A stretch of DNA of 61,889 nt from a virus (taxonomy: Duplodnaviria; Caudoviricetes), in the IMG/VR virus record IMGVR_UViG_3300025110_000013, positions 1-61,889 of that record. The stretch is one strand, 5' to 3'. The translations under genes were made by a program, and so were the position numbers. Each line of letters starts with the position of its first letter. Within the stretch, counting starts at the first letter, position 1. This document shows positions 30,703 through 57,269 of this stretch, in pieces. Below the pieces are notes generated by a model. It had not been told where the DNA came from, made no database searches, and saw only the letters and a list, made by a program, of their open reading frames with translations.

Positions 30703-33700
30703 TGGCTGGAAGGCCAAGTATAAGTGAAACAGATAAACTTCTTATGAAGTATCTACAAAACCCTCCTGTACAACGATTCCAAGCGGGTGGTTTACCTATA
30801 CCTATTGCACCTGTCCCAACTAATCCTGACGCTAATAGACCTATAGATCTGCCAAAAGCCCAAAGTTATGGGGGTAGCCAACGTAAAACTATAGCCACTC
30901 TTAGAATGCTAAGTAAAGTTATGAAAGCGGTGGGTATGGGTAAAGAAATATGGAGTATATTAACAGCGCCGCCACCGCCCAACCCCGGCGGTGCTCCCGG
31001 TGGCACCCCTCCGTTTATAATGAATTTTGGTGCAAATACAGAGAATAAAGATGAATATGACCGCCAAGTACAAGGCGCAATACAAAGCATGGGCGAAAAC
31101 TCTGCGGCGGGGGGTTCGGCAATGGTGGGGGCTTCATTTACTAGTGGCGCTGGGTGGACGGCAGTAAACCCTGCTATAGCCGCCTTTCTTTATATCGGAG
31201 CTAAAGTAGTAGAAGGATTTATGCCCGACCAACGACCTTTTTCCTATCAAAAATTAGATTTTATGCGTGGAAGAGGTGGTGATCATGCGGCAACTTACGA
31301 AAAGTTAATAGCAGATGGGTATAACCCTAACGATAATTTATACAATATTTTTGTTAACCAGATAAAAACACCCCAAGATTATTATGAGTTTCGAGACAAG
31401 TATTTTGTAGGTGATTTTGAAACTGACACATTTAGAAAAGACTTTGGGCTTACCGATGATAACTTTTTCCCCGTAGAAGAACCGGAATACGTAGAGTTAG
31501 CAGGTACAAGAGTCTATAACACAACCGGTAATGAAGAAGCATTTGCAGGGGTAAAGGGTCTTGTAGATAAATTTAACGAATATAAAGACGAAGGATACTC
31601 TGAACTACGGGTATTAGAAGAACTGGGCGTTGAACTTGATCCTGAAGTTATGGAGTATTTTAAGCAAGCTGATTTAGCTGCATTAGAGGAGGCTAGAGAA
31701 GCGGGCGATAAAGAAGCTTATGCAAGACTTTTAGGGGGTATGAGCGCCGGAGTTGGCGAAGCCGCGGATCAACGAGCTTATGAGAAAGCGGCAGGTATAT
31801 TAACTCGGGAAGAAGCTCTTGAGAAAATATACGATATGCCCGGAGCACAGTGGCAAAGTAAAGAATGGATGGAAGAAGTTATAGACAACTTAATGTACGG
31901 AAACACAGACGAGAGTGTTAACCGAGACGACTTCAATCAATACGAAACTGCTAAAGAACAAATAGCGGGTAGAGATTCTGGCTACAAATATTCTGGTGAT
32001 GAAAGAGAAATATATGATTGGGCAGTCAAACATACTACTGATCTAGTAAAAGCAGGTAAATTAAAAAATTATGGGGGAGCAGAAGCTTATCTTAAAGATA
32101 TAGGGTTTGGTGATGCGGCTGAATTTATTCAAGATATAGCGGATGATGTGTTTGATAGTGTATATACATTAGATGAAGGTAGAAGAGACACAGTTCCTGA
32201 ACAATATTCTCAAGCTGAACTTACCGAATTACCGAAAGAAGAACCGCCAGAATCGGTTACAAACGCTGTAGATTTAGAAAAATTAAAAGAAGCAACTAAA
32301 GTAGAAGATACACCTGAAACAGGGTTAGAAGACCCTGACGCAGATTTAGAAGAAGTAGATGTTGTTACAGGAGATGATGACCCTGATAACACAGTAGATC
32401 CTGTTGTAGAACCTCCCCCAGATTTTGAAGACCCTAAAGAAGATGATGAGGAAGAAGACGGCGGTGGAGGAGGGGGCGAGGAAACTGAAAAAGTTGATAC
32501 AGACGGAGACGGTGTGCCTGATAGCGAAGACCCGTCACCTAAAAATCCTGATATAAAAACTCAAGAAGAACAAGATGCAGCGGAAAAGAAAGCGGCTGAA
32601 GATCTAGCAAAAGCAAATGCAGCGTGGGTAAAAGCTAAGATAGAGGCTAGAGAAAAAGCAGAAGCTAAAGAAAAAGCAGACAAAGAAGCGAAAGATGCGG
32701 CTGATGCTGAACGTAGGCGGGAAAAAGGATATGACGATCTAAATGCCGGTGAAAAGCGAATATTTGAAGCAATGGAAGAGATGGGGTGGGACCCCAAGGC
32801 AAATGATATCCGAAATCGGTATTCCCGAGACGGTAGGCCCGATTACAGACTAATCTCTCAATTTTGGACGCGTCATAGTAAGTGGAAATCCCAAGATGCT
32901 AGAGAAAAACAACAAGCTAAAACGGATGCAGAAACCGCAATACGTGCAGAGATAGGTGAAGGGCATCCTTTTTATCGGGTAACAGGTCAAAATGAAGACG
33001 GGTCACTTATTTTAGTAGACCCTTTTGGTAACGTATCTTCTGGACTTCCAAGTGAAGAAGACCCAACTTTAATAAACGGCGAAAGCTACGGAGACCTTCC
33101 CGCAGACACTAACAACTCCATGCTTCCTAAATGGTTGCAAACCTATTTAAGTACAGGTACTACAGACGGTGGTACTGATGGTGGTACTGACGGTGGTACT
33201 GAAACAGGTGGTGGTACTGATGGTGGTACTACTGGAGGCGGTACTGAAACAGGTGGTGGTACTGATGGTGGTACTACTGGAGGCGGTACTGAAACAGGTG
33301 GTGGTACTGACGGGGGTACTGACACAGGTGGTACAGACGGTGGTACAGACGGTGGTACTGATGGTGGAGATGATGGTGGTACAGATACTGGTACTACTGG
33401 AGGCGGTACTGACGGTGGTACAGACGGTGGTACTGATGGTGGAGATGATGGCGGTACTGATGGTGGTGGTACAGACACAGGTGGTGGTGACGGCGGAGAC
33501 GGTACAGGAGATGGTACAGGAGATGGTACAGGGGATGGTACAGGAACAGGAGATGGAAGCGGAGACGGTACAGGGACAGGAGATGGAAGCGGGGACGGTA
33601 GTGGGAGAGGAAGTGGAGCAGGAATGGGGATGGGGCTTTTACAGTTGTTGTCAGCCCCTGATGCGTTAGGTCAAAAAGTCGATGTAAAGCCGCCAGACCC

Positions 33701-37547: not shown

Positions 37548-40500
37548 ATGCCTATATATTCTGTTGCTGGGCCGGAAGGAGAAACTTATAGCATAGAAGG
37601 GCCGGAAGGAGCTACTCGGGATCAAATAGTTGGTGAAATAATAAGGCAGCTACAAGCCCAAGAGAAAGAAGAACAAGATAAACAAAGACAGGAACAATTA
37701 GCTGGTATTAGAGAAAGTAGACGAGGTTCTGTATCTCGCGGTCTTGATATCGGTACAGATCTTATTGCTCAAGCTACAGGCTCAAGCTTAGAAGGTATTG
37801 GTAGCCTTTTAGGACTTGAAGGGCTTGAAGAATATGGTGCTGACGTTGCACTAGAAAACGAAGCTGACATCCAACGTAAGTCACTTTACCAAACCCGTTT
37901 TGATGATATCGAAGGTGTAGGAGACTTTGGCTCTTACTTAGGCGGTATTGCTGCGGAAAGTGCCCCTCAAATGGGTGCTGGCTTAACAGGTGCTGCAATA
38001 GGTACAGCAATACTTCCCGGTCTCGGTACAGTAGTAGGTGGTATAGCCGGTGCTACGCTTGCTAACCTTCCTTTCTTCTATGGTATGAACCGTGAACGCC
38101 AAAAAGAAGCTATTGATTTAGGGATTAAAACTGAAGTAGATGAAGGAGCGGCTTTCTTAACCGCTTTACCACAAGCCTTACTTGATGGTGTTGTAGATAA
38201 GTTATTACTAGGGGCGGGAAAAGGTTTTGGGTTTACTGATAAAGCAATTCGTAGTGGAGGATTGTTTACCAGAGGCGCTAAAGGCATAGGCACAGGTGTA
38301 ATTACTGAAGCTCCTACTGAAGTAGGTCAGCAAATGTTAGAACGTGCTCAAGCTGGGCTATCGTTAGACAGTGATGAAGCAATAGCAGAATACAGAGAAG
38401 CCGCAATTGCAGGTGGTTTATTAGGTGGTGCAGTTAGTGGAACAATTAATGTTGGTCGAGGAAGAATCCAACAAGAAGATACGAATGTTATAGATAAAGA
38501 TGGGGAAGATGCTACACCTATACCCACAAAAACAGCACCTGTAGGGGCAGCAGGGTTAGGTGCGCTTGCGGATGCAGAACAAGGTGACCTTACCGATGCA
38601 GATGTAGCCGAGGCTAGAAAAGAGTTAGATACGGTTAGTCAGGTACGGGATACTGATAAAAAACTAAAAGAAATAGTAACTGATGAAGACGTAGACAAAA
38701 TATTAAGTGACGCGGGTAGAGCAGAAGAAGAAACAGACAGAATAATAAATGCTACTGCGGATGCACAAGAAAAAGCTTTTGAACAAGACTATGGTATTGC
38801 GGAAACCCGCGGTGCTACTGAAACTGGAGACGAAAGGACAGTAGATCCTACAGAAGGTGTGGCAGTAGTAGAAAGGGCAGCAGATGAAGCAGTAGTAGAA
38901 GCAGAAACCCGCGGTGCTACTGACACTGGAGACGTTGAACGCGCAGATACACAAACAGAAGACGAAGCAAGAAGATTAAAAGATGAACAAACAACTGATG
39001 CGTTAGGCGTATTAGCTGAAGAACAAAGTGATTTTACCACTATATTTGCCAAAGTAGACGAAAAGTTAAACAGGCGACCTAAAGTAGTTACTGAGGAAAA
39101 AACTACCGGCGTAGAAACCGGAGCAGAAGTAGAAACCGGAGCAGAAGTAGAAACGGAAACGGAAACGGAAACGGAAACGGAAACGGAAACGGAAACGGAA
39201 ACGGAAACGGAAGTAGAGCCAGCGATAGAACCAGCAATAGAACCAACAGATAGACTTGGAACCATCGCTGAAGCAGCCGAGGCAGTAAAAGAAGAAGCGC
39301 AAGAACAAGTAGATGTAGTAGGTCAGGTAGAAGAACAAGCCATAGAAGACGCGGAGGCGTTAGTAAGGACAAAAGGTTTTAGAGACAAAAAAGCTGAAGA
39401 CTTTACAGACGAAGAGATTAGTACCTTTGCTACGGCAATACCCGCGCTAGAAAGAAATAAGATGTCTATGAAGGAGAAATCTAACTACATAGAAATGGTT
39501 TCTACCAACGACCAAGCGGATTTTACTGCTAGAGAAGGGCGGGAACCGACTAACCAAGAAAGAAATGACATATTTAATAAAGCCAAAAATGAGATAAATA
39601 ACGAACAGAGGTTAATCTCTAAACGATTAAGTAAGCTCAAAAACGATACTAAACCAATACGAACTAAGATCGAAGACGAAGCCGCTGCCATTGAAGCCGC
39701 AAAAGATAAAAAGCCTATAAGAGAAAGACTCGATACTACGACTAAGGTTAAAGAAGCAGAGGTAGGTGCGTTAGAGGCTAGAGAAGAAATAGAAGAAGGT
39801 AAAGTTGAAACCGTTGAAAAGAAGATAGAAGGCCAGAAAAAACCAATAGTTACTTCTAAAAAAGAACAAAAAGCAATACAAAAATTAAATGAAGCAATAG
39901 ACGAAAATTGGGAACAAACCCAATCTGAAGCGTATAAAGCTTATGTAGATAGTGGTAAGCAAAAAGTAAATGCCCCTAAACTACCTTCAAACCTTAGTGA
40001 CTCAGAAGCTGTAACAGAGCTTTTCTTAGGAGAAGGGAAGCTAACCGAGCAAGAACAGGATGCGCTTACTTATTTAACTGCACATCCAACCTTAGAACGT
40101 AATTTATTCGATCTAGCTTACGAGGATGCAGTAGATGCCCCTGCATATCAAGCATCAGAAGACGCTTCCCCTGCGGAAAAAGAATTTTTTGCTGGTAGGG
40201 GCGGGAAACACAGGAAAAATGCTCTTGCTTGGGTTAGAGATAACCTATCTGCTGAAGCAAATATGTGGGTAGTCAACGCAACGAAAAGTGAAATTGCTAG
40301 GCTTGATCGGAATCCGCCCCTTACCGCAGATTATTACGATGTGAATACAAAAGCATCTCCATCGCCTTTCGGGCTTGAAAAATCTGTTAACACGCCACAA
40401 GTATACGATGGTTATTTTAATGCAGCCGAAAACTTGGCTAGGATGAATGTAGCGAATGACCCTAAATTTTTAGAGTGGTTAAATAAACAACCTCAAAAAG

Positions 40501-52613: not shown

Positions 52614-52855
52614 TATATCTCCTTACTTTCCGAGGGAGTTCTGCCCTTATTAAACGCTTCTATCTCAGCTTTATTAGGAATCCAGAATATGTTCTTCTCT
52701 AACCTAATCTCATGGATGGTCTTCACTATAGCGAAATCTATATTAGGAAAGTTCTTTACGTGCGTTTCTTTAGCTTCGTAAGCATCCTGTACTGAATCGT
52801 AATGCCCATCTATAAAAGGCGTCCCTAAAAATAATATGTCGTATTTACCGTTCAT
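52613..52855 (-). CDS. Hypothetical protein
   Basis: ATGA overlap with the PolA stop. Confidence 0.65.
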   Translation of the reverse strand: MNGKYDILFLGTPFIDGHYDSVQDAYEAKETHVKNFPNIDFAIVKTIHEIRLEKNIFWIPNKAEIEAFNKGRTPSESKEI

Positions 52856-54678
52856 TCACATTCTCCATAAGACCTTCCCACAAAAGCCTCGCAATCCAAA
52901 GGTAACCCTTCGGCCCAATCTGGAACCCAACGCATATACATCTCTATGTCTTGCTTCGCTTGTTCTACATCGTCCTCCTTGACGCAGCATACAATCGAGT
53001 CATGTACAGTCAGTGCTACACGATGTTTCTTTGATATCTTTAGCATCTGTTCTGCAATAATGCAACGGGCTAACGCTTGACACGCGTTCTCCACAAATTT
53101 CCCACCGTATATCTTGGCGCGTCCGTTCCTTCTTTTATATGTATACTCCATACCTTTAGAATCATTGACCCCCTTAAGATCGTCATACCGCATAAGTAAT
53201 CCAGAGGGAAGGCGCACTGCTGATAAATCACCAACCGGCTCCAGTACTTGAGGTACACCGATTGACTTCTCTTTACCTTTAGCTAACTCACGGATCATAA
53301 GCTGTGCTTCTTGCCACAAACCACTTATCTCTGCATTAGCTTCTCGATAAACCTGTATAACCCGCCGCGCTTCCTCGATGTCTATTTCAAATCCGAAAGT
53401 ACCCATCTGCGCTTGGAACTTAACCGCGCCCATGCCGTAACCACTGCCTAATATTGTGGTCTTACCAACAAACCGTTCGTCTTTAGTAACCTCTGACTCA
53501 TCTTTATTGTAGATACGGGAAGCCATCTTTACATAGACATCCTCTCCGTTGCGGAAAGAACTAACCAAATCCTCTTGCCCCGCCAACCATGCAAGTACTC
53601 TTGCCTCTATTTGAGCAGAGTCACAGTCAATCAAAACATAGCCGTCGGGAGCTATGATACTTCTCTTTAAGGTCTTACCATCAGGCCCACGACTAGGAAG
53701 GTTTTGTAAGTTAATCTTGTCATCACCACCCCATCGACCTGTATGGGCAGCGTAATATCTTACAGGCACAGGCAGTATGCCGCGTCTGGATATGTCGATA
53801 AATCGTTGGGTTCGGGTTTCTTCTAGGGTGCTTTTGTTACCAAGCCGCGCCGCTACTAAAGCTTGGATACTAATAGATGGATGTTCTTGCAGTGCTTTGA
53901 ACCCTTCATCTGTCTTAGCGAAAGCATACGTTTCTTTTCCAGTGGTAGGGCTTATCTTAGTAGGGGGAATAACGCCGTTCTTCTTTAGCAGTTCAGCAAA
54001 CTTATCGTTACTCATCAGGGATTCTTTACTAACCCCCGCCTCTATGAGTAGATCATCCTTTCTATCTCGTATCGCTATAAGGTGTTGCTCTAGCAGACCC
54101 ATATCCAAATCTAGTATGGGTTCTATAAACATACGAAGTGTAGTATCAATCACCTTAAGTTCTTGTCTGGGATAACCCGCCGCCATTATTGAAAACAATT
54201 TGTAGGTCAGTTCGACATCGTTAATACAGTAGTCGCCATACTTATCAAGGCTTACTTCGCTAAACTCTTCTCGACGCTTACCCATTGCATCGACTACTTC
54301 AGTACCCTTCTCACCAATATTATAACGCTGCGCTAATGCAGCTAGACTACCGCCAACCTCTACACCATGCAGACTTCTAGCCATACATAATGTATCGGCC
54401 CAAACCTTCGGGTGTATGTCGAACAGCCAAGACAGTATTGCGCCATCAAACATGGTGTTATGTGCAAGCACCATGCTGTTAGCCCAATCGAATTCATGTA
54501 GGTATTCTTTAGTTTGTTCAAACGTGCCGCTCGCCCACTCTGCGTACCCATCGTTTACTTTTATGCTAACGCCCACCACTTCAAAACGAGGGTCGCGTAC
54601 GTATTCTTCTGTAGTAAGTTTACTCAGTGAGAAGTCCTTACTGTAAAAGGTCTCAAAGTCTATTGTTATTAAGTCCAC
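52852..54678 (-). CDS. polA: DNA polymerase family A with 3'-5' exonuclease
   Basis: Exo DFET, HNTMFD, YCINDV; motif A DSAQIEAR; motif B RFVGKTTILGSGYG; motif C VHDS. Confidence 0.93.
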   Translation of the reverse strand: MDLITIDFETFYSKDFSLSKLTTEEYVRDPRFEVVGVSIKVNDGYAEWASGTFEQTKEYLHEFDWANSMVLAHNTMFDGAILSWLFDIHPKVWADTLCMARSLHGVEVGGSLAALAQRYNIGEKGTEVVDAMGKRREEFSEVSLDKYGDYCINDVELTYKLFSIMAAGYPRQELKVIDTTLRMFIEPILDLDMGLLEQHLIAIRDRKDDLLIEAGVSKESLMSNDKFAELLKKNGVIPPTKISPTTGKETYAFAKTDEGFKALQEHPSISIQALVAARLGNKSTLEETRTQRFIDISRRGILPVPVRYYAAHTGRWGGDDKINLQNLPSRGPDGKTLKRSIIAPDGYVLIDCDSAQIEARVLAWLAGQEDLVSSFRNGEDVYVKMASRIYNKDESEVTKDERFVGKTTILGSGYGMGAVKFQAQMGTFGFEIDIEEARRVIQVYREANAEISGLWQEAQLMIRELAKGKEKSIGVPQVLEPVGDLSAVRLPSGLLMRYDDLKGVNDSKGMEYTYKRRNGRAKIYGGKFVENACQALARCIIAEQMLKISKKHRVALTVHDSIVCCVKEDDVEQAKQDIEMYMRWVPDWAEGLPLDCEAFVGRSYGECE

Positions 54679-54705
54679 GTTATTAGTTCCAGTAGTATTT
54701 GCATT

Positions 54706-54867
54706 TTAAGATTTAGTGAGTACGATTTTTTCTCTGTGGAAACCCCTACGTATACCCACCGCTTTAGTCATACCAATAGGTACTTGTTTAATCTCCCCTC
54801 CTTTACTCAAGAATTCTGTAACTTTATCGTTAAGTTCTTTACTTTCTTCTGCCTTCGTTTTATTCAT
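54706..54867 (-). CDS. Small SutA-like RNA-polymerase-binding protein (53 aa)
   Basis: ELNDKVTEFLSKGGEIKQV resembles the SutA core (EEFLxRGGKVQEI). True ATG at 54867; the longer ORF merely runs through the array. Confidence 0.55.
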   Translation of the reverse strand: MNKTKAEESKELNDKVTEFLSKGGEIKQVPIGMTKAVGIRRGFHREKIVLTKS

Positions 54868-54872
54868 TTTTA

Positions 54873-55343
54873 ATAACCACACCTGCCAAACCACACACCA
54901 CCTTGACCCGCCGTAATCCACCTGATCCCAACCCGCCATACCTGCCAAACCCCAACCGAATCTACCGGACCTCTGCATAACTCAACTTGCCGCAACGCAC
55001 CTGACCTGCCTTACCGGAACCCAACAAAACTTAACGTAAACCACCTTAACTGAACATATCCTACCTGCCTTACCACACCCCATCTTGGCCCACCACAACC
55101 CATCTAAATAAACCACACCTGACCTGCCATACCGCATCGTGCCTTATCTCAACATACCCCGAGCCACCATACCTGCCTTACCTTACCTCGCCAAACCTAA
55201 CCTCGCCGCATCCAAACGCATCTGACCATGTCATAACTCGCCTTACCTGCCAAATCATGCCCCAGCCTAACCCACCAAAACCTTACAAATCCAAACCGAC
55301 CTGACCACACCTGCCAAACCAAACCGCATCCAGACCAAGCCAA
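54873..55343 (-). ncRNA. Non-coding pentamer-register array (GGCA + n x G-N-Y-N-N); candidate guide-RNA array
   Basis: GGCAGGT (plus-strand ACCTGCC) at 54881, 54940, 55004, 55063, 55122, 55171, 55245, 55309. Spacings 59, 64, 59, 59, 49, 74, 64 are all 5n+4. Of 80 pentamers, 74 start with G, 78 have a pyrimidine at position 3, and 40 are GGY. Confidence 0.85.
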
Positions 55344-55344
55344 T

Positions 55345-55845
55345 TTATTTTTTAAGAAACAAACTGATTGGTTCCAAGACATCCGATAACTCGGACAAGG
55401 CTTTGTATTTGTTTGTAAATGCCTCTAGCTCCTTCTTTGCGTTGTCAACTAACTGTTGTCTGCCTTCGGGATCTTTCAACATATCAAACGTGTTAAGCCA
55501 GATTCTTTGGGGCTTGCCGCCGCACTCAATCTTTGCTCGTTGAAACAAACGAATCTCTGTAGGTTCGATCTGATCCTCGTTTAACTTCTCAGTCACTACT
55601 ACTAAAGACCTTTTGATATTTTTCTCTGTTATCAATCGGAATTTATTACCCGCTATTTCGTCGTTCCATTCAAAGTCGTTATGCAAAACAGACTTTGGGC
55701 TACGAGCGTGTTCTACTAAAGAACCATCGGGGGCATAACCCCCGTGGCGTTTATTCAGAGCCTCTATTTCCTTTAGAGCAGCGTTCGCATCTGCCTTGAA
55801 AAAAGACCCCTTTCTCCATTTAACTTCGGTGTAAACAGGTTTCAT
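55345..55845 (-). CDS. Partner protein of the RAMP cassette (166 aa)
   Basis: LVEHARSPKSVLHNDFEWNDEIAG motif; ATGA overlap with the RAMP gene; the array starts 3 nt after its stop. Confidence 0.8.
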   Translation of the reverse strand: MKPVYTEVKWRKGSFFKADANAALKEIEALNKRHGGYAPDGSLVEHARSPKSVLHNDFEWNDEIAGNKFRLITEKNIKRSLVVVTEKLNEDQIEPTEIRLFQRAKIECGGKPQRIWLNTFDMLKDPEGRQQLVDNAKKELEAFTNKYKALSELSDVLEPISLFLKK

Positions 55846-56489
55846 GCTGCTGTTTCCGATTCAAAGTCTATGAAGGTTTCCTTCAGTTCAATTTGATGCT
55901 TGAACTCCCTGTCAACCTCAAACCGACCATACTCACCGCCCTTTTCTGGGCGCATTTCACCTAGTCCAACACCGAAACCGGCCCTTTGTATTAGATTTAA
56001 GATGGTATTTTGTGTCAGCGATTGAGAGTCAAACTCCATCCGAACGATCATCGACCAGTTACGAAACTCAGGACGATAACGCAAATCAGTAGAACCCATG
56101 CCTACCCGAACTATGTCTTCCCGCATCAGAGGGTCTTCTGATTCAAAAGCACACAGATTGTTGACCGTATCATCAGGAATAATGAACAGGGACTTTCTAA
56201 GTAAAGTCTTTTCAAGTCCGATGTCTTTGTGAGCAGCATTGATAAAACACCTTTTCAATCCCCCTGCCGGAAACCCAAAGCGTCCATCCTCACAAACATA
56301 AGCAGCATCCCTAAACTCTTGCTCTGGGTCTCTGACATCTCGGTTCTTCACCTTCACCCCTTGGTGCTTGTCCTTCATCATCTTTATTGCTTTCATACTC
56401 CACTTATGCTCGATCAAAGCAGAGATCCCCTTGATGCGCGTGGTCAAAATCGACTGCTGCATCTCTTCAAGTTGTATTACGTTACTCAT
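55842..56489 (-). CDS. Stand-alone RAMP/Cas7-like RNA-binding protein (215 aa)
   Basis: N-terminal strand RIKGISALIEH; FPAGGLKRCF (cf. RAMP PgSslKG); YRPEF..W; C-terminal Gly-rich loop GFGVGLGEMRPEKGGEYGRFEV; AGGA SD before the ATG at 56489. Confidence 0.8.
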   Translation of the reverse strand: MSNVIQLEEMQQSILTTRIKGISALIEHKWSMKAIKMMKDKHQGVKVKNRDVRDPEQEFRDAAYVCEDGRFGFPAGGLKRCFINAAHKDIGLEKTLLRKSLFIIPDDTVNNLCAFESEDPLMREDIVRVGMGSTDLRYRPEFRNWSMIVRMEFDSQSLTQNTILNLIQRAGFGVGLGEMRPEKGGEYGRFEVDREFKHQIELKETFIDFESETAA

Positions 56490-56521
56490 TCTATCTTCCT
56501 TAGCGGCTATGCCGCGCTTTT

Positions 56522-56956
56522 TTAGTTTAGAAAGTTTCCTTTCTCTAGTCGTTTGATTTCTGCGTCTATATAAAACTTGATCTTCTTGGCATCCCGAAGT
56601 TTGTCGCTGTGCGAAGCGATGCCGTACCGATAGCATGATCTGAACACCTCACCGATCTGTGCGTTCATATCTCTATGTGAGATCAAGTCCTGTAATTCTT
56701 TAGCCCCCTTTGGAAGTTCATAGTAAGCCGCGGTGCTACCGTCCGATAAGGTCTTATCAGGAAGTTCCCAACTCAACCCCGTACCTGCTGGAGGGTGACC
56801 AACAGCAACATTATTGTCACCCGTTGTAATGTCACCACGCGCACTTCTTACTTTGTATACATAAGAAGCTGACACTCCAACCCGCGCCGCTATTTCTTTG
56901 TTAGATTTCTTAGGAGATCGGATTAATGCCTTTGCTATTTTCTCGTACTTATTCAA
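56522..56956 (-). CDS. HTH + DUF3310-like protein (probable TTG start at 56956)
   Basis: HTH SNKEIAARVGVSASYVYKVR; C-terminal YYELP...GEVFRSCYRYG...DAKKIKFY. Confidence 0.65.
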   Translation of the reverse strand: MNKYEKIAKALIRSPKKSNKEIAARVGVSASYVYKVRSARGDITTGDNNVAVGHPPAGTGLSWELPDKTLSDGSTAAYYELPKGAKELQDLISHRDMNAQIGEVFRSCYRYGIASHSDKLRDAKKIKFYIDAEIKRLEKGNFLN

Positions 56957-57269
56957 AATCAAGCTCCAGTTGTTTATCGTTTGCATCGGATGGGTTAAGA
57001 ATGTCTTGGATACTGTGCATATTCTTCTCGTTAACGATTAACGCTATGCCTTTTTGTTTCTCAATATCTTCTAGGTTTATTTGTTGGAGGGGGGTAGGAG
57101 TGTTCTTACCCGCTTTACATTCGATGCCGAAGAACTTGCCTTGGTAACATCCTACTATGTCTGGCACGCCGCTACGTCCGTACCCGCCTGTCACTGGGTA
57201 GAAGTAGTAAGCACCAAGGGCGCGTAGCTGCTTGACTACAACCTTTTTTACTTTAGCTTCGGGAGTCAT
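56949..57269 (-). CDS. VRR-NUC domain nuclease (Holliday-junction resolvase-like)
   Basis: TPEAKVK, GVPD, GIECKA, PTPLQ. Confidence 0.88.
   Translation of the reverse strand: MTPEAKVKKVVVKQLRALGAYYFYPVTGGYGRSGVPDIVGCYQGKFFGIECKAGKNTPTPLQQINLEDIEKQKGIALIVNEKNMHSIQDILNPSDANDKQLELDFE

What the first reader, a model, noticed from the sequence alone, without database searches (positions are those of the whole stretch)
54873..56489. Phage-encoded RAMP/Cas7-like protein + partner + pentamer-coded array: candidate RNA-guided interference system
Seen: a compact cassette on the minus strand, inserted in the replication operon between the HTH/DUF3310 gene and PolA. It comprises a 215-aa protein with RAMP hallmarks (FPAGGLK segment, C-terminal Gly-rich loop GFGVGLGEMRPEKGGEYGRF), a translationally coupled 166-aa gene, and a ~470-nt non-coding array starting 3 nt after that gene's stop. 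Established: RAMP/Cas7 proteins polymerise on guide RNA with a fixed nucleotide step and flip out bases at regular intervals. Inference: each subunit grips a constant G-N-Y triplet and displays the NN pair, giving a non-contiguous guide. No cas1/2/3/5/6/10 or canonical CRISPR repeats are present, so this is not a standard CRISPR-Cas locus. With no linked nuclease, it may act by binding or silencing. I recall recently reported viral RAMP + GGY/NN RNA systems (named VIPR) that this would match, but I cannot verify that here, so novelty must be checked.
Basis: partly seen in the sequence, partly recalled or inferred. Interest (0 to 1): 0.97.

Follow-up and report, generated by a model that had tools for sequence, protein, structure and literature searches.

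The report
Marine phage VIPR guide-RNA system
This marine phage carries a VIPR system, a CRISPR-related RNA-guided DNA silencer first described in 2026, and two of its seven guides appear aimed at small integrating elements in bacterial chromosomes, so it is a well-supported new example of a known kind.

Summary
On the minus strand lie a 215-aa gene (55842..56489), an overlapping 166-aa gene (55345..55845) and a 477-nt G/T-rich array (54868..55344).

The 215-aa protein is a sequence homologue of the solved SUSP1 Vipr protein (PDB 36pp, E 4e-7). It folds as a Cas7/Csm3-like RAMP (pLDDT 95).

The array holds seven abutting units of 9-14 pentamers. The pentamer consensus is Y-N-N-G-K (Y 78/80, G 74/80). 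Units are joined by a 4-nt CAGG, so every unit is 5n+4 nt long. This matches the "staggered" vrRNA arrays named in the VIPR preprint.

Relatives with 97-100% identical Vipr carry different unit sets. Of 42 loci with the partner gene, 40 have Vipr and 40 have arrays.

Under the published 1-nt-skip rule, guide u2 spells K[E/D]MMQxWADYL. It matched 66 sites, all wobble-aligned in the C-terminus of integrase ORFs. Eleven of them match 24/24. Guide u1 spells the first 11 codons of a small gene in an integrase-AlpA-primase element. No target was found for the other five guides.

The kind has been published (four 2026 preprints), and this scan has noted it in other genomes. This is a new member, not a new system.

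The parts
55842..56489 (-). vipr: 215-aa stand-alone RAMP (Cas7-like) protein. Thumb Arg R139, G-loop 171-188 (GFGVGLGEMRPEKGGEYG), RRM-sheet His H27.
   Evidence: phrog_4652, E 9e-30. PDB 36pp_D 'SUSP1 Vipr protein', E 4.2e-7. BLASTP to SUSP1 ALH47069, E 2e-11. AF2 pLDDT 95.1. Foldseek Csm3/Cas7, E 1e-6. Residue equivalences from the alignment.
55345..55845 (-). vap-like accessory gene, 166 aa, overlapping vipr by ATGA. Function unknown.
   Evidence: phrog_15946, E 3e-14, the same family as the gene next to vipr in Mycobacterium phage Quico. No similarity to SUSP1 vap1. 40 of 42 IMG/VR loci with a relative also encode Vipr.
55314..55344 (-). Constant 31-nt leader of the array (six pentamers with one extra base).
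   Evidence: Identical in 3 relatives (L009-L011) whose arrays otherwise differ; L012 differs by 1 base and L013, L014 by 3-4 bases.
55250..55313 (-). Guide unit u1: CAGG joint plus 12 pentamers. Predicted target is the first 11 codons of a 93-aa gene in an integrase-AlpA-primase element.
   Evidence: Unit shared with L009 and L010 arrays. Single metagenome hit L121, 22/24. A 96-nt metatranscriptome contig at depth 474 covers 55241-55312.
55176..55249 (-). Guide unit u2: CAGG plus 14 pentamers. Predicted target is the K[E/D]MMQAWADYL[D/E] coding motif of P4-type tyrosine integrases.
   Evidence: 66 sites, 66 in frame with the skipped base at wobble. Eleven match 24/24 over 12 units.
55127..55175 (-). 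Guide unit u3: CAGG plus 9 pentamers. Target unknown.
   Evidence: Register. Shared with L009. Hits in 5 genomes were no better than the backward control.
55068..55126 (-). Guide unit u4: CAGG plus 11 pentamers. Target unknown.
   Evidence: No hit in 5 genomes.
55009..55067 (-). Guide unit u5: CAGG plus 11 pentamers. Target unknown.
   Evidence: No hit in 5 genomes.
54945..55008 (-). Guide unit u6: CAGG plus 12 pentamers. Target unknown.
   Evidence: Shared with L009. 0 hits in viral contigs and in 5 genomes.
54886..54944 (-). Guide unit u7: CAGG plus 11 pentamers. Target unknown.
   Evidence: Variants in L009 and L010 differ at NN positions. 0 hits.
54868..54885 (-). Array end: a last CAGG, one pentamer and TTATTAAAA, running into the next gene's ATG.
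   Evidence: The GGTTATT ending recurs in L009-L012.

Best explanation
This is a VIPR (Viral Interference Programmable Repeat) system of a marine tailed phage. It consists of a Vipr protein, an accessory gene and a 'staggered' array of seven vrRNA units.

Mechanism, by homology with the SUSP1 system. One Vipr protomer binds each pentamer and the protomers form a filament. The G (position 4), the loosely specified next base and the following pyrimidine are held by the protein. The two free bases of each pentamer pair with double-stranded DNA, and every third target base is skipped. Binding silences transcription; no nuclease is linked.

Inferred here. The 4-nt CAGG joint, a one-base phase slip, marks where one guide ends and the next starts. 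Guide u2 reads the conserved K[E/D]MMQAWADYL[D/E] codons of P4-type tyrosine integrases, which sit beside tRNA or tmRNA genes. Guide u1 reads the start of a small gene in an integrase-AlpA-primase element. The phage therefore probably uses the system to keep resident integrating elements (satellite-like parasites or islands) from excising and interfering with infection.

Shown: homology, fold, array grammar, array turnover among relatives and the sequence matches. Inferred: transcription and processing of the array, binding, silencing and the biological benefit.

The confidence of 0.88 is for membership and mechanism by homology. For the integrase/island targeting I put about 0.65.
For: Protein.
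- Sequence match to PDB 36pp 'SUSP1 Vipr protein', E 4.2e-7.
- BLASTP E 2e-11 to the SUSP1 gene, which lies in the same vipr-vap-intergenic layout.
- Both proteins fall in phrog_4652.
- AF2 pLDDT 95.1. 122 PDB chains at E<=0.001, headed by Csm3/Cas7.
- SUSP1 contact residues named in 10.64898/2026.04.26.720927 (Results part 1 read) align as H17=H27, R138=R139, D177=E178 and R179=R180.

Array.
- Y1 78/80, G4 74/80, free NN. All 7 spacings are 5n+4. The array is unique in the genome.
- The 5n+4 rule equals the '1 nt overlapping' staggered arrays of the fig. S18 legend.

Comparative.
- Quico and UmaThurman homologues have CNNGG arrays.
- Of 42 vap-relative loci, 40 have Vipr and 40 have arrays.
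- A relative with identical Vipr shares 4 of the window's 7 units. A 97% relative shares none.
- Within the u2 guide family the NN stay fixed while position 5 drifts.

Targets.
- The u2 pattern (22 fixed bases) gave 61 loci in genome contigs. My arithmetic expects about 0.07 under uniform composition.
- It also gave 5 loci in viral contigs, where three other guides with 20 fixed bases gave 0.
- 66/66 sites are in frame in the C-terminus of integrase ORFs (about 400 aa where the locus holds the whole gene), with the skipped base at wobble.
- Five of 5 genomes with a 24/24 site have exactly one site and 0 in the backward control.
- Seven of 9 loci checked carry a tRNA or tmRNA gene; in the 5 whose layout I worked out it lies next to the integrase gene.
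- Guide variants GC/CG/TC at unit 6 correspond to Ala/Arg/Ser codons at the variable residue. Ala and Arg codons are each seen in 11 sites.
- u1 matches 22/24 at codons 1-11 of a 93-aa ORF in an integrase-AlpA-primase element. A second guide family of relatives hits the same ORF (18/22, 0 of 200 shuffles reach it).
- u2 has the sense-strand sequence and u1 the antisense. This fits DNA targeting, not mRNA targeting.
- No self-target was found.

RNA hint. A 96-nt metatranscriptome contig at depth 474 covers u1, against depth 2 for the vap contig of the same run.
Against: - Nothing here shows transcription, processing, RNP formation or DNA binding for this locus. The RNA evidence is from assembled contigs, which cannot give strand, ends or level. 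The high-depth contig diverges from the window at both ends, so it comes from a relative's array.
- Five of 7 guides have no predicted target.
- The u1 target rests on one metagenome hit.
- The 1-nt-skip rule was established for SUSP1 and P. fulva (type II) and is only assumed for this clade.
- W178 of SUSP1, which stacks on the second G, is M179 here. The second G is only 41/80, so recognition differs in detail.
- The accessory protein is unrelated in sequence to vap1 and could not be modelled (pLDDT 56).
- The host is unknown, and the elements carrying the integrase are not shown to be satellites of this phage.
- The integrase motif is very widespread (61 species genomes across several phyla), so a match does not identify a specific opponent.
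Confidence: 0.88

Rival explanations
1. It is a genuine VIPR system, but its guides regulate something other than integrating elements, such as host genes or other phages. On this view the integrase matches exist because the guide happens to encode a very common protein motif.
For: Five of 7 guides have no target. The u2 motif occurs in 61 species genomes of many lineages, so it is not specific. The published P. fulva clade mostly targets prophage regulators.
Against: A chance origin of a 24/24 wobble-aligned match to one gene family is very unlikely: about 0.07 hits expected, 61 found, and 66/66 in frame. Relatives carry further guides spelling the catalytic-Tyr motif VKDPNGRAYNR of the same integrases (20/22) and motifs of a small gene in the same kind of island. 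u1 falls in an integrase-AlpA-primase element.
Confidence: 0.15
2. The complex targets RNA (mRNA silencing or cleavage, as Cas7 backbones do in type III CRISPR) rather than DNA.
For: The closest solved folds in the library are the RNA-targeting Csm3/Cmr4/Cas7-11. SUSP1 Vipr can pair with ssRNA in vitro.
Against: u2 has the same sequence as the integrase coding strand, so it cannot pair with the mRNA, while u1 is antisense. Use of both strands fits DNA targeting. The published work shows dsDNA binding and strand-independent repression, and incomplete filaments on ssRNA.
Confidence: 0.05
3. The G/T-rich stretch is not a guide array. It would instead be a degenerate coding region, a G-quadruplex or regulatory tract, or an origin with iterons, and the RAMP gene would be a stray Cas7 relic.
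For: Short ORFs of 41-90 aa can be drawn across it. The equivalent stretch in Gordonia phage UmaThurman is annotated as a CDS. TRF does not call it a tandem repeat.
Against: Units are gained and lost in 5n+4 blocks between near-identical phages, which breaks any reading frame. Conservation is at pentamer positions 1 and 4, not at codon positions. Arrays accompany Vipr homologues from actinophages to marine phages. Two units spell conserved codons of foreign genes.
Confidence: 0.02

Closest known systems
Type II VIPR of Escherichia phage SUSP1 (vipr ALH47069, vap1 ALH47068, four vrRNAs). Sources: bioRxiv 10.64898/2026.04.26.720920 and 10.64898/2026.04.26.720927; PDB 36pp.
   Same: Homologous Vipr (E 4e-7 to 2e-11; same PHROG). 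Same gene order, vipr-vap-array. Pentamer guides with free NN. No nuclease. Phage-borne. Predicted wobble-aligned targets in a recombinase gene of an integrated element, as shown for SUSP1 in 10.64898/2026.10.15.759431 (section 6 read).
   Different: Only about 24-34% identity, confined to the C-terminal half. The accessory gene is from another family (phrog_15946 against phrog_5926). There is no ~100-nt vrRNA with a 3' pseudoknot tail: units of 49-74 nt abut through a CAGG joint. The second G is relaxed (41/80 against 26/27 in SUSP1 arrays), and W178 is M179. The target here is a tyrosine integrase, whereas the SUSP1 satellite recombinase has a catalytic serine.
VIPR systems with 'staggered' vrRNA arrays (fig. 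S18 legend of 10.64898/2026.04.26.720920; legend text only, figure and supplements not seen).
   Same: Adjacent vrRNAs overlap by 1 nt, which is what a 5n+4 unit length means. The end of one guide marks the start of the next.
   Different: I could not see which VIPR type or clade the figure shows, so I cannot say whether this marine clade is the one depicted.
Unannotated loci in actinophages: Mycobacterium phage Quico gp57-gp58 (Cheoctovirus) and Gordonia phage UmaThurman gp39.
   Same: These are the closest cultured-phage Vipr homologues (35-39% identity). Quico gp58 belongs to the same accessory family. Their CNNGG arrays contain GGCAGG joints.
   Different: The array lies upstream of vipr in Quico. 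These are temperate phages, with the locus next to the immunity region. The GG is stricter (about 0.8).
Class 1 CRISPR backbone subunits (Csm3/Cmr4/Cas7).
   Same: RRM core, thumb hairpin and glycine-rich loop. Polymerises on guide RNA with periodic base flipping. Best structural matches in the library.
   Different: No CRISPR repeats, and Cas1 was searched for and not found; other cas genes were not searched for. Period of 5 with 3 bases sequestered, giving a gapped guide. Acts as a single protein species.

Membership tests
VIPR system | A Vipr protein homologous to the characterised Vipr (SUSP1). | tested here: met
   phmmer against PDB 36pp_D, E 4.2e-7. tblastn on the SUSP1 genome, E 3.5e-9. 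BLASTP, E 2e-11. Both are in phrog_4652.
VIPR system | Minimal RAMP fold: single RRM core, thumb and glycine-rich loop. | tested here: met
   AF2 pLDDT 95.1 and pTM 0.88. Foldseek gives 122 chains at E<=0.001, with Csm3/Cas7 on top. The hairpin at 121-142 carries R139, and the G-loop is 171-188.
VIPR system | Conservation of the residues that hold GGY in SUSP1 (H17, R138, D177, W178, R179). | tested here: inconclusive
   H27, R139, E178 and R180 align with H17, R138, D177 and R179. W178 is M179 here, and that column varies in the family (W/G/D/N/M). N-terminal bundle residues (K33, R39) could not be aligned reliably.
VIPR system | Adjacent tandem 5-nt repeats with a fixed trinucleotide (GGY or a related consensus) alternating with variable NN, 9-16 units per vrRNA. 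| tested here: met
   Seven units of 9-14 pentamers. Y 78/80, first G 74/80, second G 41/80, NN near-uniform. Relaxed consensuses are reported in print.
VIPR system | A vipr-accessory (vap) gene beside vipr. | tested here: met
   A 166-aa gene overlaps vipr by ATGA and is syntenic with Vipr in 40 of 42 loci. Which of vap1-6 it is could not be told. It is not vap1.
VIPR system | No CRISPR array and no cas adaptation genes in the locus. | tested here: met
   No CRISPR-like repeat family in the whole genome. No Cas1 match. Other cas families were not searched individually.
VIPR system | vrRNAs are expressed and co-purify with Vipr. | not testable with these tools
   Only a hint: a metatranscriptome contig of 96 nt at depth 474 over u1, against depth 2 for vap. 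Contigs show neither strand nor ends.
VIPR system | Targets follow the 1-nt-skip (NNx) rule, are typically wobble-aligned in coding sequence, and there is no self-targeting. | tested here: met
   u2: 66/66 sites wobble-aligned in integrase genes, 11 at 24/24. u1: 22/24 at a gene start. No self-match above shuffled guides. Other skip lengths were not tested.
VIPR type II (SUSP1 / P. fulva) | vap1 accessory gene, and ~100-nt vrRNAs each ending in a conserved structured 3' tail. | tested here: not met
   The accessory gene is unrelated to vap1 (BLASTP E 42; hhalign probability 0.5%). Units abut with only a CAGG joint and have no tail.
CRISPR-Cas class 1 | CRISPR repeat-spacer array, several RAMPs, and Cas1/Cas2 or an effector nuclease. 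| tested here: not met
   A single RAMP gene.

The most novel reading that the evidence does not exclude
In this marine clade the guide array needs no tail, ribozyme or dedicated nuclease. A one-base phase slip (the 4-nt CAGG joint) by itself ends one Vipr filament and starts the next, so the protein lattice defines the guide boundaries. The identical joints also act as recombination points. Whole guides are swapped between phages through them, giving a Cas1-free route to repertoire turnover. The repertoire is aimed at two weak points of P4-like islands, the integrase C-terminus and a small Cys-rich 'HGG' gene. That would make tyrosine-integrase islands, and not only serine-recombinase satellites, a general VIPR target in the sea.
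Probability: 0.3. Interest if true: 0.6.

Novelty: new member of a known kind. Interest (0 to 1): 0.4.

Why it matters
It adds a complete, uncultivated marine phage to a family so far tested only in an E. coli phage and a Pseudomonas prophage. It offers a compact 1.6-kb cassette with seven natural guides for testing two things: whether the gapped code and silencing hold in a distant clade, and how 'staggered' arrays are cut.

The predicted integrase and island targets extend the published phage-versus-satellite picture to tyrosine integrases of tRNA/tmRNA islands in marine Pseudomonadota. The 24/24 sites also give candidate hosts or opponents to look at.

It does not change what is known about the kind of system.

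Tried and rejected
- **Whole-array Fourier analysis** was a poor test (8.4, with one shuffle reaching 9.8). A strict GG-run caller found only short runs. The register became clear only after the GGCAGGT joints were found.
- **Databases with no match.** Rfam: none at E<=1 over 54600-56700, so there are no hammerhead-interspersed units. Megablast of the cassette against GenBank phages: none. Pfam: nothing for the 215-aa protein, and only a weak DUF7602 hit (E 0.14) for the 166-aa protein.
- **Promoter and terminator scan** gave nothing usable on the minus strand.
- **Accessory protein.** The AF2 model was too poor to search (pLDDT 56.2). hhalign to SUSP1 vap1 gave probability 0.5%. The ESM Atlas returned only viral hypothetical clusters. 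Its function is left open.
- **Targets of the other guides.**
  - u1, u6 and u7: 10-unit patterns gave 0 hits in viral contigs.
  - u1 and u3-u7 were searched with up to 2-3 mismatches in five genomes that carry the 24/24 u2 site. There was nothing above the backward control; the 4 hits for u3 compare with 2 control hits.
  - All 39 distinct guides of the clade were scanned against the window and the loci then in hand (L002-L050). Nothing exceeded shuffled guides.
- **W178-to-M179 and the relaxed second G.** I considered that the substitution explains the relaxation. The W-bearing sister clade is nearly as relaxed (0.55-0.62 against 0.45-0.52), so I do not claim it.
- **VIPR type (I-VII)** could not be assigned. 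The main text names no vap2-6 and gives no clade membership. The figures and supplementary tables that would show it were not available to me. They may also show whether this clade is among the 664 loci.
- **RNA runs.** Parts of the stretch without contig cover in the four RNA runs say nothing. Small shares in X16-X20 are no evidence of habitat.
Full report
**What is there.** The window is a whole IMG/VR virus record of 61,889 bp, which CheckV rates complete. On the minus strand, between an HTH-type gene (56522..56986) and PolA (52852..54678), the following lie in order:
- a 215-aa ORF, from ATG 56489 to the stop at 55842-55844;
- a 166-aa ORF (55345..55845) that overlaps it by ATGA;
- a 477-nt G/T-rich non-coding stretch (55344..54868);
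- a 53-aa ORF (54706..54867).

**The array grammar.** A plain period-5 spectrum over the whole stretch is weak (8.4 against a shuffle mean of 1.0), because the phase slips repeatedly. The key is a motif, GGCAGGT, found eight times on this strand inside the stretch and nowhere else on it. The seven spacings are 64, 74, 49, 59, 59, 64 and 59 nt, and all are 4 mod 5.

Read from each joint, the stretch is a 4-nt CAGG followed by 12, 14, 9, 11, 11, 12 and 11 pentamers. Of these 80 pentamers:
- 78 start with a pyrimidine;
- 74 have G at position 4;
- 41 have G at position 5;
- positions 2-3 are close to uniform.

No other place in the genome, on either strand, has 7 of 9 consecutive Y..G. pentamers. 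Shuffles of the array's own composition give essentially none.

**The protein.**
- Pfam has no model for it. It belongs to phrog_4652 (E 9e-30).
- It matches one PDB sequence, 36pp 'SUSP1 Vipr protein' (E 4.2e-7).
- I fetched the SUSP1 genome. Its homologue, ALH47069, gives BLASTP E 2e-11 and is in the same PHROG. It lies in the same layout: vipr, a small second gene, then a ~530-nt intergenic region.
- An exhaustive HMMER search found 3,529 cluster representatives at E<=0.001.
- With a 67-sequence alignment, AlphaFold2 gave pLDDT 95.1.
- Foldseek against the PDB gave 122 chains at E<=0.001. The top hits are Csm3, Cmr4, type VII Cas7 and Cas7-11, at TM about 0.5.
- The cryo-EM preprint (10.64898/2026.04.26.720927, Results part 1 read) names H17, D177, R138, W178 and R179 as the GGY contacts. 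In my alignment these are H27, E178, R139, M179 and R180. R139 and R180 are invariant. The W column varies across the family.

**What is known.** Four 2026 preprints describe VIPR.

- 10.64898/2026.04.26.720920 (Results and four Methods sections read). It defines Vipr + vap + vrRNAs of 9-16 YNNGG repeats. It establishes the 1-nt-skip rule, dsDNA binding and transcriptional silencing, and describes seven types. [quoted passage not shown] S18 legend), and alternative consensuses.
- 10.64898/2026.04.26.720927. It gives the structures.
- 10.64898/2026.10.15.759431 (section 6 and Methods section 17 read, plus passages). It shows that SUSP1 VIPR immobilises a satellite by silencing its recombinase at wobble-aligned, near-invariant codon positions.
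- 10.64898/2026.10.21.760802 (passages only). It reports 99 VIPR-like period-5 clusters, some with trinucleotides degenerate at one position.

A unit length of 5n+4 is exactly a 1-nt overlap of successive pentamer guides. I therefore file the array under the staggered architecture. I could not see the figures or supplements, so the VIPR type is not assigned. It is not type II, for two reasons. The accessory gene (phrog_15946) is unrelated to vap1 (phrog_5926), and there is no 3' tail.

**Relatives.**
- tblastn against GenBank phages found 153 records. The best hits are Gordonia and Mycobacterium phages (35-39% identity), then a cyanophage, then Felixounavirus-type phages at about 24%.
- Quico has a CNNGG array with GGCAGG joints upstream of its homologue. 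UmaThurman has one downstream, annotated as a CDS.
- An alignment of accessory-protein homologues pulled 42 IMG/VR loci.
  - 40 encode Vipr. One of the other two is cut by the contig end.
  - 40 have same-strand pentamer arrays. L021 and L049 have none at my threshold.
- In the close clade the order is vipr-vap-array. In a distant clade (vap about 28% identical) the array lies between the two genes.
- Arrays turn over by whole units.
  - The relative with identical Vipr (L002/L009) shares u1, u3, u6 and u7 (u7 with one NN change). It lacks u2, u4 and u5 and has two other units.
  - The 97%-identical relative (L003/L012) shares none.
  - The 31-nt leader and the GGTTATT end stay constant.
- In the u2 guide family (window, L011, L013, L014) the NN are the same except at unit 6 (GC, CG, TC). 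Position 5 of several pentamers differs. This is what is expected if NN carry the information and position 5 does not.

**Targets.** No guide matches the phage itself or the relatives' loci better than shuffled guides do.

*Guide u2.*
- I wrote the u2 family as NNx with unit 6 free. Five IMG/VR contigs matched, and 61 contigs of the species-representative genome set matched with one more unit.
- For 22 fixed bases in 596 Gb, my arithmetic expects about 0.07 hits under uniform composition.
- All 66 sites lie 15-53 codons before the stop of an integrase ORF (about 400 aa where the locus holds the whole gene), in the frame that puts NN at codon positions 1-2. They read K[E/D]MMQxWADYL[D/E].
- Eleven have GC (Ala) at unit 6 and so match the window's own guide at 24 of 24 positions over 12 units. 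The records are labelled Cellvibrio, Gilvimarinus, Arsukibacterium, Methylobacillus (three), two marine gammaproteobacterial MAGs, and MAGs labelled Bdellovibrionales, Deltaproteobacteria and Klebsiella.
- Eleven have CG (Arg), which matches the L011 variant.
- Five such genomes each have exactly one site and none in the backward control.
- Seven of 9 loci checked carry a tRNA or tmRNA gene; in L063, L076, L092, L106 and L110 it lies next to the integrase gene.
- One integrase has Arm-DNA-bind_3, Phage_int_M and Phage_integrase domains, with an AlpA gene beside it.

*Guide u1.*
- Eleven units gave one metagenome hit. It covers the first 11 codons (MPLPNLKQRCT) of a 93-aa Cys-rich ORF, on the opposite strand.
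- The ORF lies in a contig that reads integrase, AlpA/excisionase, PriCT_2+AAA_25 primase-helicase, then the 93-aa ORF.
- The first unit of two relatives' arrays hits the same ORF (18/22 and 17/22; 0 of 200 shuffles reach either score).

*Guides of relatives.*
- One spells VKDPNGRAYNR, the catalytic-tyrosine motif (20/22).
- Another spells FHGGASTGPKTSE in a 108-aa Cys-rich protein of another integrase island (22/26).

*Guides without a target.* Three other window guides gave 0 hits in viral contigs. None of u1 or u3-u7 matched five candidate genomes above control. Five of the 7 guides therefore remain unexplained.

**Expression.** The stretch is held by many marine metagenome runs. Four RNA-library runs were laid on it.
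- In one run, a 96-nt contig at depth 474 matches 55241-55312 (u1 and the next joint) without a mismatch. The only other contig of that run lies on vap at depth 2.
- In another run, a contig at depth 36.8 touches the array, against depths of 3-4 for the genes.
- Both contigs diverge from the window outside the match, so they come from relatives' arrays.
- Contigs cannot show strand, ends or level. I count this as a hint only.

**Verdict.** This is a VIPR system with high confidence. It is a new member in a marine phage, with a staggered, relaxed-consensus array and a non-vap1 accessory gene. It probably silences integrase and a small island gene of tRNA/tmRNA-inserted elements.

The idea of targeting a recombinase at wobble-aligned conserved codons is already published for SUSP1. 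The difference here is the recombinase class: tyrosine here, serine there.

Earlier notes of this scan report the same kind, including integrase-reading guides, in at least 14 other genomes. I saw those notes only after my own target result, and I did not test their loci.

Noticed in passing
window 54706..54867 (-): A 53-aa ORF directly after the array matches Pfam SutA-RBD (the RNA-polymerase-binding domain of SutA), E 1.8e-9, above the curated cut-off. It follows the array in L002/L009. In L003 a homologue lies further downstream, after about 470 nt of other sequence. L013 and L014 have other sequence directly after the array and were not searched further. It is therefore probably a neighbour rather than a fixed part of the system. 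A phage RNAP-binding protein next to a transcription silencer may still be worth a look.
   Followed up: partly
L004:3607-3937 (Gordonia phage UmaThurman, NC_031249.1 gp40): The annotated 'hypothetical protein' gp40 lies over a strict pentamer (YNNGG) array just downstream of the Vipr homologue gp39. The CDS call is probably a misannotated vrRNA array.
   Followed up: partly
L005:2598-2853 (Mycobacterium phage Quico, NC_028751.1): A CNNGG array with the same GGCAGG 4-nt joints lies in the 400-nt gap upstream of gp57 (Vipr homologue) and gp58 (same accessory family as the window). The locus is next to the immunity/Cro/antirepressor region of a temperate phage.
   Followed up: partly
L022-L050 (IMG/VR loci, accessory protein about 28% identical): In this distant clade the array lies between vipr and the accessory gene, not after both. 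Most of these contigs share one sample-number prefix, so they may be close variants of one population.
   Followed up: no
L121:4326-4607 and L091:3211-3537: Small Cys-rich proteins (93 and 108 aa, with a C...C...C..HG(G) pattern) have no Pfam or PHROG family. They lie at the far end of integrase-AlpA(-primase) islands. Guides of three different phage arrays hit them, so they may be a second recurrent VIPR target besides the integrase. That the two proteins are related is my reading of the motifs; it was not tested by alignment.
   Followed up: partly
window 56487..55953 (residue 179 of the 215-aa protein) and arrays of L008, L004, L005, L015-L020: G frequency at pentamer position 5 falls from 0.96 (SUSP1) through about 0.8 (actinophages) and 0.55-0.62 (marine sister clade, G-loop GEWRP) to 0.45-0.52 (window clade, G-loop GEMRP). 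The Trp that stacks on the second G in SUSP1 is Met here. The trend is suggestive, but the Trp/Met change alone does not explain it.
   Followed up: partly
window 33128..33602 and 38853..39245: Long in-frame coding repeats: 12-nt GGTGGTACTGAT-type units (Gly-Gly-Thr-Asp-like, about 24 copies), and GAAACG x10.5 with 18-nt GTAGAAACCGGAGCAGAA units. They are probably in structural or fibre genes and are unrelated to the finding.
   Followed up: no
window 55241..55312, run X18: A 96-nt contig in a marine metatranscriptome run, at depth 474, matches one guide unit exactly. It has different flanks on both sides, so the same guide sits in another array context in that sample.
   Followed up: partly
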